Shown here one piece after another: positions 872 to 62,100 of a stretch of 64,000 bases of DNA. Made by a program: the position numbers and the translations under genes. The stretch's first letter is position 1. Every line of letters begins with the position of its first letter. Below the pieces are notes generated by a model. It ran no database searches and was not told the DNA's origin. It saw only the letters and a list, made by a program, of their open reading frames with translations. Source of the stretch: Hormiphora californensis (taxonomy: Eukaryota > Animalia > Ctenophora); NCBI GenBank assembly GCA_020137815.1, contig CM035361.1:6138001-6202000 (forward strand), given 5' to 3'.

Positions 872-3800
872 AAATGCCAATCCAACATTCCACCGAGTCA
901 CTTTCACAGCCGTGCTTCTTCATCGCAAAGGGTGGTACTTCTAGAACCTAAAATAGAAAATTGATCTTGACCTTCTGATCAATTAGATCCCCTGCGGTCC
1001 CCTGGACTCTGGAGAGATCCGTCTACATTCGGACCGCGATAAATACCGGGAACTCCGATTTACCGAGTGGAACCCTTTCCCTCGAGCATCTCGGTAAATC
1101 GAGATCTGATTGTGTTACCAAAAACTATGATCTCCGGAGCTGGTTGAAAAAGGGTTTGAACGAAACAAGTTCAAACCAGGAACCGACCGAATCAGGAAAT
1201 ACTGGTCCCTGATTGGCCGATAACCAGTCACGTGACCTAAATAACGAGTTCTGATTGGTTGTTTACTTGTTTCGGTCGGTTCCTGGTTCAAACTACTCAC
1301 CCCAATCTTCAGGACCTGTCCTTCAAGGTTGTTTGCAAGGCCTATGGGGGCAGATTTTAGTCCGCCAAGAAACGTTACATCTTGGTCCGTTATCTCTAGC
1401 CTAGAAAGTATAAAATATGACGATACACTTTAATTCTGTATTATTATATTTTCAATATCGGTCTATTGAATGTATTTATTTCAATAAATATATGAAAATA
1501 CACTCAATAGACCGATAAAACACTCTTGTTTTGCATTTGTGCACACTCCATACTCTTAAAGGCGATTCAAATAAAGATTCTTCTACCTTCTAACCTTTTA
1601 TTTAGTTTGTTGCTATGCCATGTACCAATCTTGTCAAAATGGTACCCTGACCCTTCATCGACGAAATTCAAAATATTATACGCCGCAACCTGGGTGTTAC
1701 GGGCCTCAGCACTGAAACTGTACGCTCCAGTCACTCCTTGATAAGAGATGTTAGTTAGGTGTTCGAATATGTGTGCTCCCTCGTCAAATCCGGAGCCACC
1801 ACAGCGGGCACCAGAGTGGTCTATTACTGATCCAAGTTCGGTTTCGTGATACTGAAGAACCTAGAGAGAGAGAGAAATGGTTTTTACCGCTCGCAAATGG
1901 TCTAGGGATTAGGGAAACTCCCTCTCGGCATTCTCCCCTCCACCCTATCTTTATTCATTTCCGTATAATATCTCTCTCTCTCTCTCTCTCTCTCTCTCTC
2001 TCTCTCTCTCTCTCTCTCTCTCTCTTACCGTTCCAGCCATCATTACGGCATCGTAAACCATCGCTGTCACTGTAATAATATCTGAATCGTCCAATGAGCC
2101 ACCGGCAAACTCCATCAGATTATTTTTGAACTCCCTGACATTGAAACTCATTAATTAATTAAATTTCAGTTAATTATGTAGTTTAATTAATCAATTTATT
2201 AATTTCTTAAATTCTTATAGTTCTCTTATTTAAGTTTTCTAAGTATTCAGAACAGAATCTACAAGTCTGGGAGTACAGGTATAATTACTTGTAAGGGGGA
2301 GTGGTTGTGTTTATGGAGAGAGACAGCCCAAGTAGTCCGCCTAACCATGCAGGGTAATACCCTGTAGCCCTTCGCTTTGGTTGGAACTTTTCAACCATTA
2401 GCGACTGTGGGGCGCTGGCTATTCCCTCGGTCACAATCCACACGAATGTACTGTCCATTAGCCCAATCTGGTCGGTAAAAAAAATAATTTGGAGGGGTCC
2501 GAATTTGGGGTGTATTTCGGATAAGAAACTTTCGTGCTTACAACTTTACCTAATTAGTTAATTAATCTTAGTTACGATTTTGGATGATAATTTGAGATAC
2601 GCTCAAACTGTCTTTACATTCATCCTTATCGGTGCAATTCTCCAGGAACCGACCGACACAAGTAAACAGCCAATCAGAACTCATTATTTTGGTCACGTGA
2701 CTGGTTATCAGCCAATCAGGGACCAGTATTTCCTGATTCGGTCGGTTCCTGCTTAATTGCAATGCCCTCAGTGCCCTGAATTTTAGAAATCTAAAAAAAT
2801 ATTTCTTTAAGCCTTCAGCTAGGCTGCAAAATTGCCAATGCCACGTACCGCCTGTGCTTTTTCCAAGACAGCCCTAGCGTACAGATCCTCACAGTGAAGA
2901 ATGAAGACACGTTCCAAGTTGCGTTCCACGTTCTTAAGGATATCGGCCAGGTCCAGACGATCCACATCTTCCACGGCATTGAAAAAATACACCTGCAATG
3001 AATTAAACAATGAATTAATGAATATTCATACCATATGGTACTAACCCGGTAAATCGGGGATGCCTGGTATATCGGGGTCCGACTGTACTATACATTAACA
3101 TGATCACAATTACCTCTATATCAAATTCCTCTACAACACCCCCACCCAGTAACAAACACTGCTATTGACTATGTAACTACAGTCGGGCCTCGATTTACCG
3201 GGATGTTCGGGGAAAGGGTTTTGCCCGGTAAATCGGGGATGCCTGGTATATCGGGGTCCGACTGTACTATACATTAACATGATCACAATTACCTCTATAT
3301 CAAATTCCTCTACAACACCCCCACCTAACCACACCTCCACAACCCTAACCAACCCTCTCTACAATTACCTCTATATCAAACTCCTCCACGACGCTATCCT
3401 CTGCAGTAGTCTCAGACAGCAACTGCTGCAGAATCGTGACTCCATGAATTCCGTAGTTGCTATCAGACGCTATGATAGCGAGATCAGTCCACCCATAATG
3501 AGTCAGGATATCTAGTATCACCTCAGCTTGGAACTCGTCGGAAGGCGCCATCATTAACAGCTCGGTCCTATCACCTGGGTTTCGATTGAATACTAGTTCG
3601 GAAAGTTAGGAGAGTTTGTGTGTGGGGGGATTTGGGGACGAATATAAGCGCTGCTGGATTCTCGGAAGATTCAGCAGGAATGCGGGATCCGGGGAACATG
3701 GAACATTAAAAGTGGTGTCCTTAGTGTCATGCAGCAACCGACCAATCAGAACTCGTTATTTAGGTCACGTGACTGGTTATCAGCCAATCAGGGAACATGG

Positions 3801-59100: not shown

Positions 59101-62100
59101 GAGTTGAGTGCGCGCACCATAGAACACTTGCTGTGAGTGTGACTGCATGTGGGACACTCCCGTATTGAGCAATAAGGAACTGGGTTTGGTAAAAGTTGTC
59201 AGGAGAAGAGTTAACTATTAATTTCTCTCTCTCTCTTTCTCTTTCTCTCTCTCTCTCTCTCTCTCTCTCTCTCTCTCTCTCTCTCTCTCTCTCTCTCTCT
59301 CTCTCTCTCTCTCTCTCTCTCTCTCTCTCTCTCTCTCTCTCTCTCTCTCTCTCTCTCAAAATTCAAATATTGAATTATGAAGTCCAATTTTGTAAGTGCA
59401 TTATATAGTAGAGTCGATAACTACATCGACCTTTCCCAATTGTTCCAGTTTTTGTCACATCTGTTTGGAGCCTCGACACGACCTCTAAACAGGTGTTACT
59501 TTTTCACAAACTGTTTTCATCTTGGTGTAATCAGCAGTTGAAATGTTGCTAATCATAACAAAAACCTGACTAAATTTTTTCAACTTGGGGTAAAACCATG
59601 GGTGTCAAAAGTTAGCTCTAGGTCCCCTGAGTAACCATCCGGAGACTCTAAGAGATATTTCAAGCCGTTCTCCCGTAATCATTAATCCCGGTGGAGAAAA
59701 AAATACAATGCGGACGTACGTGAGCGCTGGCAGGCTGTTTACATGTTATTGTATGTCTCTCACTCTCTCTAGAAAAACCGCACGTGCGGTTGCGCCGCGC
59801 GAGATAACTCTTTCTCAAGGGGGAGAAAAGAGAGAGACGCACATTAACGTTATACATTAAAGTTGAGGTTGTAGGCAATTGCACGTACGTCCATACTCAA
59901 ATATGTGCTCTACCGGGATTAATGATTACAGGAGAACGGCTTGAAATATCTCTTAGAGTCTCCGGATGGTTACTCAGGGGACCTAGAGCTAACTTTTGAC
60001 ACCCATGGTTTTACCCCAAGTTGAAAAAATTTAGTCAGGTTTTTGTTATGATTAGCAACATTTCAACTGCTGATTACACCAAGATGAAAAAAGTTTGTGA
60101 AAAAGTAACACCTGTTTAGAGGTCGTGTCGAGGCTCCAAACAGATGTGACAAAAACTGGAACAATTGGGAGAGGTCGATGTAGTTATCGACTCTACTAAT
60201 AGGTACATTTGAATCCACATACCTTCATAACGGTCCCAAGGATTGTCAGCAGAATCTCCTTTCTCAGACTTGGTCCGCTTGTTGTTTTGGTAGTTATCTA
60301 GTGAAGGGGTACTTACTTTACTTTGGTTTGGGGGGGGGGGGGGGGGTAACTTGTTATGATTTAACCATCTTTTACAAGAAAGATTCGAGTTTCGAGTAAA
60401 TCGGTAACAGGGTGGGCTTGGTAGGTGAAAATAAACATATCAAACAAATATACTAAGTTACACACCTGGTTCATAACGAAAATGCAACTATTTAGCTCAG
60501 TCGGGTTGAGTACAGTTTTTTGCCATATCCAACGTCCCGGGGGTAACTCGACCACTGCACCACTGTAACTGTAGTCTGATTCTGTGGGGGGGGGGGGGGG
60601 GGGGGGTAAGTGAGGGAGGGGGTTAAAAACTCAACCACTGCACCGCTGTAACTGTAGTCTGATTCTGTGGGGGGGGGGGGGGGGGGGGTAAGTGAGGGAG
60701 GGGGTTAAAAACTCAACCACTGCACCACTGTAACTGTAGTCTGACTCTGTGGGGGGGGGGGGGGGTAAGTGAGGGAGGGGGTTAAAAACTCAACCACTGC
60801 ACCGCTGTAACTGTAGTCTGACTCTGTGGGGGGGGGGGGGGGGTAAGTGAGGGAGGGGGTTAAAAACTCAACCACTGCACCGCTGTAACTGTAGTCTGAT
60901 TCTGTGTTTGGAGGAGGGGGTGAAACTGAGAAACTGTATTCAGGTTGTATTTATAAGAGGAGGGGGGGGGTAGTAGAGGGAATAATGTAGTCTGACTCTG
61001 TATTTGAAGGGGAAGGGGGAGTGGGGTGAATCTGTTATATTCTGGTTGTATGTTGGTTGTATGATGGTTGTATAAAAAGGGTGGTGACAAAGCCATGAAT
61101 AACGATACAACTAATACTTATCACTCACGTAGTATGTGTGAGATGAATCGATCCCGGATGTAGTTGCTATATCGAATTGATTCCGTTACATCATGATTTC
61201 CAAATGTGAAACATTTTATCGCCAGCCTCTCCAGCATTTCTCGACCTGGACGGAAATTGGGTTATCACTGGGTTATCACTGGGTTATCACTGGGTTATCA
61301 CTGGGTTATCACTGGGTTATCACTGGGCTATCACTGGGCTATCACTGGGTTATCACTGGGTTATCACTGGGTTATCACTGGGTTATCACTGGGTTATCAT
61401 AGGGTTATCACTGGGTTATCACTGGGTTATCACTGGGCTATCATTGGGTTATCACTGGGTTATCACTGGGTTATCACTGGGTTATCACTGGGTTATCACT
61501 GGGTTATCATTGGGTTATCACTGGGTTATCACTGGGCTATCATTGGGTTATCACTGGGTTATCACTGGGTTATCACTGGGTTATCATAGGGTTATCACTG
61601 GATTATCATTGGGTTATCATTTTGATTTTTTTTGTCGCCTGACACTGTGTTTCGCACTTGAAACAAAAAGTATGAATCGTAACGGTGGAAATATATCATA
61701 AAAATCACTTAAAATAATGGCATTGAAAACACGCAACCGACCGAATCAGGAAATACTGGTCCCTGATTGGCTGATAACTAGTCACATGACCTAAATAACG
61801 AGTTTTGATTGGTTATTTAACTTGTTTCGGTCGGTTCCTGACACGCACCTTTTTCAAGGACCTTGTCCTGGCTGAGTTTTTCAATTATCTCGATCACTTC
61901 AGCATTATCATGGCTGTCCCTCTGGAAAAACAGCCTGAAAAGAATCATTGTGATGAAACAAGACCATATATATGGCTGTCCCTCTGGAAAAACAGCCTGA
62001 AAAGAATCATTGTGATGAAACAAGACCATATACAGTCGGACCCCGATTTACCAGGCCCCGATTTACCGGAACCCTGATTTACCGGGAGGATAAAATTCCC

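What the first reader, a model, noticed from the sequence alone, without database searches (positions are those of the whole stretch)
3106..62031. Window-wide pattern: tandem repeats are amplified splice junctions
Seen in sequence: in four unrelated genes the repeat unit spans or abuts an exon/intron boundary, with the extra copies on the intron side and one copy continuous with the real exon. Donors: iGluR 3369 (3 copies), TNPO3 11038 (2), SAM-like gene 29853 (31) and 30580 (5). Acceptors: TNPO3 13071 (2) and 15589 (2), SAM-like gene 30674 (~50), M16A gene 56763 (2-3), 60581 (5), 61934 (2). Branch-point or AG-containing arrays abut acceptors at 26744 and 61245. That is about 10 clear cases in 64 kb, with unrelated unit sequences. 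Established: tandem duplication across an AG|GT is a recognised intron-gain route, but normally a rare event. Inference: this genome has a mutational process, or tolerance, that repeatedly seeds satellites at splice junctions, and a spliceosome that picks one site among many identical decoys. I do not know of a description of this as a genome-wide phenomenon.
Basis: partly seen in the sequence, partly recalled or inferred. Interest (0 to 1): 0.9.

Follow-up and report, generated by a model that had tools for sequence, protein, structure and literature searches.

The report
Splice-junction "mirage" repeats in comb jelly
In four genes of a comb jelly, ten short DNA stretches that straddle exon-intron borders are copied head-to-tail 2 to 50 times, a repeat type already known from lancelets and humans, and they are most likely tolerated by-products of frequent duplication in short introns rather than a new mechanism.

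Summary
The window is Pleurobrachia (ctenophore) DNA. One case (56763) is bridged exactly by short-read contigs and varies in copy number; a second sample shows a further donor-spanning duplication absent here. The two largest arrays are untested in reads. The introns were not created by the duplications: each keeps 110-1664 nt of unique intron. Against uniform placement 2.2 of 22 duplications should span a junction (P 1e-5), but stripped of transposons and extra copies these introns are short (median 153 nt); then 4.1-5.2 are expected (P 0.003-0.012), and 6.6-7.8 if exon-anchored copies stay visible twice as long (P 0.08-0.2). The kind is known: amphioxus 'mirages' and the human F7 VNTR, where the exon-side copy is spliced. 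This scan found it before in annelids, urchins and sharks. New: a ctenophore, high density, and an unresolved roughly two-fold excess.

The parts
3106..3386 (-). iGluR donor 3369: 26-nt exon-end + GT segment, real copy 3361-3386 and two decoys (3285-3310, 3106-3131) inside a larger 179-nt duplication with MITE pieces
   Evidence: P0003 joins EEFDIE|VYFF
11027..11088 (+). TNPO3 donor 11038: 25-nt segment (12 exonic + 13 intronic), 2 copies, period 37
   Evidence: exon matches PF24138 and human TNPO3
12705..12741 (+). TNPO3 donor 12714: single copy in the window, but tandemly repeated (goes back 37) in sample S2
   Evidence: one X5 contig, depth 1690 against 225 nearby, side 33
12988..13075 (+). 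TNPO3 acceptor 13071: pyrimidine tract + AG + 4-5 exonic nt, 2 copies (marginal span)
   Evidence: sequence
13204..13297 (+). 29-nt repeat ending 4 nt before TNPO3 acceptor 13302 (abutting)
15521..15601 (+). TNPO3 acceptor 15589: 26-nt segment (13 intronic + 13 exonic), 2 copies, period 55
   Evidence: exon matches PF24139
22355..22420 (+). 16-nt repeat ending 12 nt before the last TNPO3 acceptor 22433 (abutting)
26750..27471 (-). 26-nt minisatellite, about 27 copies, each with a branch-point-like motif and a weak AG, ending 5 nt before acceptor 26744
   Evidence: P0005 match across the exon
28591..29892 (-). 42-nt minisatellite, 31 copies: 40 exonic nt + GT. The exon-side donor at 29853 is a new chimeric site; a consensus-like donor, inferred to be the ancestral one, lies 1260 nt downstream
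   Evidence: P0005 joins across 29853/28407
30304..30616 (-). donor 30580: about 36 exonic nt + GT + variable short-unit tract, 5 copies
30658..32664 (-). acceptor 30674: 41/36-nt minisatellite, about 50 copies, 17 exonic nt each, 13 interspersed unit variants
56752..56832 (-). M16 peptidase acceptor 56763, 3 copies; copy number differs between alleles and samples
   Evidence: X1 contig 56651-56920 with 0 differences; X2 skips 56766-56800; X5 goes back 56813-56785
56956..57008 (-).
   Evidence: loose ends of 3 X5 contigs continue the unit
60545..61001 (-). acceptor 60581: about 80-nt unit (branch-like motif, C-run, AG, 37 exonic nt), 5 acceptor-bearing copies, outermost degenerate
61256..61621 (-). 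11-nt minisatellite, 33 copies with AG, ending 10-12 nt before acceptor 61245 (abutting)
61910..62032 (-). acceptor 61934: perfect 62-nt duplication (25 exonic + 37 intronic)

Best explanation
These are tandem duplications of existing exon-intron borders ('mirage' minisatellites), which likely accumulate because short duplications arise often in this very polymorphic genome, those wholly inside exons are likely purged, and the base introns are so short that a surviving 25-80-nt duplication often overlaps a border. Such a duplication always leaves one splice site continuous with the exon (shown by the sequence); the spliceosome likely uses that exon-side copy, as shown for human F7 and amphioxus, and rare use of a decoy would give a frameshift or stop and likely be removed by nonsense-mediated decay (inferred). 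Some pairs then expand by slippage or unequal exchange into 5-50-unit arrays with interspersed variants and allele-length differences (arrays and variants shown; mechanism inferred). The residual roughly 2-fold excess likely reflects longer visibility of exon-anchored copies, perhaps with a mild bias.
For: Non-spanning duplications of the same size range occur in introns (12 of 22 events) and outside my gene spans (11 loci, 0.42 per kb), so duplication is frequent everywhere. Median intron 153 nt without transposons, microsatellites, nested gene and extra copies (40 introns). Expected spanning events then 4.1-5.2 of 22, 6.6-7.8 with 2-fold persistence, against 10 seen. Units unrelated; 5 and 13 interspersed unit variants in the two long arrays. 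Copy-number alleles at 56763 in S1 and S2 and a further donor duplication in S2. S1 haplotypes differ by 14 letters + 7 gaps in 203 and 15 + 2 in 259. Homologues join at the exon-side sites. Nearest decoy frameshifts in 9 of 10 and adds a stop in 1. Precedent: PMC3087553 and PMC3902484 passages, PMC1557585 abstract and discussion.
Against: The copies are young (many over 90% alike, polymorphic), so 2-fold persistence is an upper bound. No RNA of this organism showed which copy is spliced; P0003 and P0005 are other alleles or species. The window was picked because it shows the pattern, and I built the exon models knowing the repeats.
Confidence: 0.6

Rival explanations
1. Junction-directed mutation: duplications start preferentially at exon edges. 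The likeliest route is recombinational repair in a hyper-heterozygous genome: strand invasion starts in the conserved exon, stalls where the homologues stop matching at the intron edge, and re-anneals out of register. Nucleosome edges or transcription-linked breaks at splice sites are alternatives.
For: Of two non-transposon loci with go-back joints listed, one spans a donor. Alleles differ by many intronic indels and insertions. H. californensis has 3.2% heterozygosity with raised non-coding indels (PMC8527503 passages). The other taxa with mirages are also polymorphic marine animals (recalled for amphioxus).
Against: n = 10 in one hand-picked window; P 0.08-0.2 with persistence. The three weakest extra duplications found were all purely intronic. 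Exons also differ between S1 haplotypes. Earlier scan notes for annelids report little or no excess genome-wide (unchecked).
Confidence: 0.27
2. Assembly artefact: two divergent haplotypes, or noisy long reads, were stacked in tandem at conserved exon edges.
Against: A short-read contig spans the 56763 triplication with 0 differences, other alleles have fewer or more copies, and S2 has its own donor duplication. Recurrent interspersed unit variants without indels in the 42-nt array fit a real minisatellite. Haplotype stacking cannot give 31-50 copies.
Confidence: 0.06
3. Adaptive regulation: decoy ladders tune expression through alternative splicing coupled to decay, or give isoforms.
For: Decoys score like the real sites on window-trained matrices (circular); tandem repeats affect splicing in humans (PMC10078293 passages).
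Against: Copy number is polymorphic, units unrelated, hosts unrelated; decoy use would nearly always break the frame; mirage papers report normal splicing.
Confidence: 0.04
4. Intron gain in progress by tandem duplication across AG|GT.
For: Known route (PMC3443670 passages); mirages were proposed as raw material for new introns.
Against: No intron has matching ends (6-13 of 30 in register, 13 introns or ends tested, two of them with an unreliable far end) and each spanning case keeps 110-1664 nt of unique intron beyond its last decoy.
Confidence: 0.03

Closest known systems
Amphioxus 'mirage' minisatellites (Adh3, globins BflGb6/BflGb9, troponin C, PGBD5); PMC3087553 passages of section 16, PMC3902484 passage of section 17
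   Same: Tandem repeats spanning either the 5' or 3' exon-intron boundary, unit 10-160 bp, decoy AG/GT, haplotype-length differences, normal splicing reported.
   Different: Here a ctenophore, 10 cases in four neighbouring genes (13% of junctions), up to 50 copies; normal splicing only inferred from homologous proteins. The original Adh3 paper (PMC117041) was not held, so I could not compare per-gene density.
Human F7 intron-7 37-bp VNTR (PMC1557585; abstract and discussion read)
   Same: First unit spans the exon-intron border; identical downstream pseudo-donors are functional but only the most upstream is used.
   Different: A single locus in long-intron mammals; here introns are short, acceptors are involved, and at 29853 the used donor is a new chimeric site rather than a copy of the old one.
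Intron gain by tandem genomic duplication (PMC3443670 passages; PMC4974935 listing only)
   Same: Tandem duplication that copies splice signals.
   Different: There an exonic AGGT segment becomes a new intron; here the intron pre-existed and only one of its ends was duplicated.

Membership tests
Mirage minisatellite | Tandem unit spans an exon-intron boundary (donor or acceptor) | tested here: met
   10 cases
Mirage minisatellite | Extra copies carry AG/GT splice signals | tested here: met
   1-49 decoys per case
Mirage minisatellite | Length instability between haplotypes | tested here: met
   56763: fewer copies in an S1 allele, more in S2; donor 12714 duplicated only in S2 among three DNA runs laid. 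Other eight cases not shown.
Mirage minisatellite | Normal mRNA splicing at the exon-side copy | tested here: inconclusive
   Homologous proteins join there at 3369 and across the 'SAM-like' chain; no usable RNA run of this organism
Mirage minisatellite | Somatic instability | not testable with these tools
   needs single-animal tissue genotyping
Intron gain by tandem genomic duplication | Both intron ends match the same duplicated exonic segment | tested here: not met
   6-13 of 30 in register; unique intron remains
Intron gain by tandem genomic duplication | Intron absent from orthologues | not testable with these tools
   no genome held; no related loci

The most novel reading that the evidence does not exclude
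In hyper-heterozygous animals, exon edges are duplication hot spots because homologues stop matching there, so splice sites are continually duplicated and replaced (as at 29853, where a new chimeric donor has displaced the old one by 1.26 kb); one junction in eight in Pleurobrachia genes carries such decoys, and a short-intron, early-branching animal still picks the exon-side site, implying exon-anchored splice-site choice at the base of animals.
Probability: 0.25. Interest if true: 0.7.

Novelty: new member of a known kind. Interest (0 to 1): 0.36.

Why it matters
As it stands it extends mirage repeats to ctenophores (no paper with ctenophore + minisatellite + splice; none with five of six related terms) at a high local density, and warns annotators that decoy junctions will mislead gene models. 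It is a ready natural experiment on choice among identical splice sites in short introns, where pairing across the intron would favour the wrong copy. If the residual excess is a true mutational bias tied to heterozygosity, it would give mirages the mechanism that PMC3087553 calls unclear and a route for turnover of splice sites and intron growth.

Tried and rejected
No whole genome held, so no genome-wide test. No RNA holder listed; the guessed RNA run X7 laid only 11 contigs, one exon at 15 differences in 118. Two protein searches with TNPO3 exons found nothing. No ctenophore DNA from a common dispersed repeat in viral or metagenome contigs, none from P0005; no look-alike windows or notes on this genome. 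An apparent frameshift near 12550 was my wrong acceptor (true 12572); a candidate exon 18256-18401 belongs to a nested gene on the other strand; 62349-62369 and 57544-57600 are not needed in the M16 chain; the 51-nt repeat at 52965-53114 lies beyond the M16 stop and was not counted. The splice matrices were trained on these same sites and included three wrong ones, so their scores are descriptive only. High depth near 57236 is overlap of contig ends, not a duplication. P0004 and P0006 are chance repeat-protein hits. Dropped before the counts: repeats inside transposon-like elements (seven loci), microsatellites, junk tracts, one repeat in the last 'SAM-like' exon (26520), and 11 loci outside the gene spans. 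Bias for frame-keeping units: not seen (1 of 10 nearest decoys in frame). PMC117041 not held.
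Full report
Origin and genes. No genome was held. An exon at 4051-4302 matched two Pleurobrachia bachei gene models (93% and 76%) and 'ionotropic glutamate receptor-12 [Pleurobrachia bachei]', so the window is Pleurobrachia or a very close ctenophore. 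Of 33 exon translations, 6 hit Pfam at E below 0.001: ANF_receptor twice, TNPO3/IPO13 domains three times, a PqqF-like M16 lobe once; none hit SAM. Solved-structure matches were human TNPO3 (E 9e-4) and insulin-degrading enzyme (E 0.02). P0003 joins EEFDIE|VYFF at donor 3369, and P0005, a 293-aa protein from an unnamed 1135-nt contig, aligns at 44% over 250 positions across all five exons of the unnamed gene. These support the junctions but come from other alleles or species.

Observation. TRF and my own ungapped scans recover all ten cases: donors 3369, 11038, 29853, 30580 and acceptors 13071, 15589, 30674, 56763, 60581, 61934, with 1 to 49 decoys. 13071 is marginal (4-5 exonic nt). Five more repeats end within 12 nt of a junction (13227, 22355, 26750, 56956, 61256). 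That is 10 of 79 junctions in 10 of 40 introns. That extra copies lie on the intron side follows from the geometry and is no separate evidence. The long arrays have recurrent interspersed variants (5 types in 30 units; 13 in 50), as real minisatellites do (established knowledge). At 29853 the unit is 40 exonic nt plus GT, so the exon-side donor is a chimeric new site unlike the 28 internal decoys, while a consensus-like donor followed by 185 nt of unique intron closes the array; I infer that this was the ancestral donor and has been displaced.

Reads. Six DNA runs of two samples hold the region (S1 may be the assembly's own sample). In 56410-58015 an X1 contig spans 56651-56920 with no difference, so the triple acceptor at 56763 exists in short reads; an X2 contig skips 56766-56800 and an X5 contig goes back 56813-56785, so copy number varies; three X5 contigs continue the unit at donor 57009. 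In 11500-19000 one X5 contig goes back 37 nt over 12705-12741, which spans donor 12714 and is single in the window; X1 contigs also go back within the intron 40-80 nt before acceptor 11767 (only the best-supported rows were shown). 13071 and 15589 were not shown bridged there. Seven cases, both long arrays included, have no read test. No RNA run was usable.

Chance. Inside the four gene spans I counted 19 duplications outside transposon-like elements, microsatellites and junk tracts, plus 3 weaker ones, all intronic. Placing each unit at random, exonic placements excluded: pooled introns with extra copies collapsed, 2.2 of 22 expected, P 1e-5; own intron only, 4.4, P 0.003; with transposons, microsatellites and the nested gene removed, 4.1 (P 0.003) and 5.2 (P 0.012). 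The stripped introns have a median of 153 nt. If exon-anchored duplications stay detectable twice as long (my assumption, an upper bound), expectations are 3.8, 6.7, 6.6, 7.8 and P 0.001, 0.075, 0.08, 0.2. Spanning or within 12 nt: 15 of 19 against 7.3-8.5 (P 8e-5 to 1e-3). The window was selected for the pattern, so these P values are optimistic. Short introns and loss of exonic duplications thus explain about half; a 2-fold excess remains open.

Mechanism. The duplications did not make the introns: the two ends match at 6-13 of 30 positions and 110-1664 nt of unique intron remain. The nearest decoy would shift the frame in 9 of 10 cases and add a stop in the tenth, so functional mRNA needs the exon-side site; selection of that site and decay of the rest are inferred. 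Best reading (0.6): frequent undirected duplication, short introns, purge of exonic events, tolerance of border events, later expansion. Main rival (0.27): a bias at exon edges, most plausibly misaligned repair where divergent homologues stop matching; S1 haplotypes differ by about 6-7 letters in 100 plus gaps in two contig pairs. Artefact (0.06), regulation (0.04), intron gain (0.03).

Known work. Earlier scan notes (unchecked AI notes) pointed me to amphioxus 'mirages' and report the same pattern, also window-wide, in annelids, sea urchins and sharks. [quoted passage not shown] PMC1557585 (abstract, discussion) shows that only the most upstream of five to nine identical donors in the F7 VNTR is used. 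PMC3443670 (passages) covers intron gain by duplication; PMC8527503 (passages) Hormiphora heterozygosity and nested genes, with nothing on junction repeats in the passages shown; PMC10078293 (passages) repeat effects on human splicing. Nine searches found no ctenophore report and no genome-wide enrichment test; subscription papers and supplements were not seen.

Verdict. Real, a new member of a known kind, dense and polymorphic; interest 0.36. The open point worth a genome-wide test is whether young duplications favour exon edges.

Noticed in passing
window 19080-21480, 32750-35700, 36990-37760, 40900-41340, 48580-49480: Long nonsense tracts of mixed homopolymer runs, likely unpolished low-quality read fill; one starts about 90 nt after the 50-copy array and may hide the 5' exons of that gene.
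   Followed up: no
window 16400-18600 (-): Probable nested gene on the opposite strand inside the large TNPO3 intron (182-aa open frame at 17651-18199, several AG/GT exon candidates; a CCP/sushi-like look is recalled, not tested).
   Followed up: partly
window 14064-15194 (+): 376-aa open frame in a TNPO3 intron, multi-copy by contig depth; looks like a retroelement ORF1 (recalled, not tested).
   Followed up: no
window 8267-8361, 61719-61840, 1173-1285, 2638-2766, 56291-56408 and others: A roughly 110-nt dispersed element (up to 8 self-matches) sits at or within about 15 nt of donors at 8269, 61849 and 1301; it also appears translated inside P. bachei model P0002.
   Followed up: partly
window 50024-50953, 58025-58858, 59406-60198, 9017-9792: Large palindromic elements, two built from internal 10-11-nt repeats; likely foldback/MITE transposons.
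   Followed up: no
window 52965-53114: 51-nt repeat, 3 copies, holding an acceptor-like site on the minus strand beyond the M16 stop; could be an eleventh case in an unmodelled gene.
   Followed up: partly
window 11931-12410 and 57514-57687: Insertions absent from other alleles: an X5 contig runs 11688-11930 into 12411-12739; X1 and X2 contigs skip 174 nt.
   Followed up: partly
window 4050-4303 (-): P0003 lacks the first 30 or so residues of this exon that P0001 and the window have; alternative acceptor or model difference.
   Followed up: no
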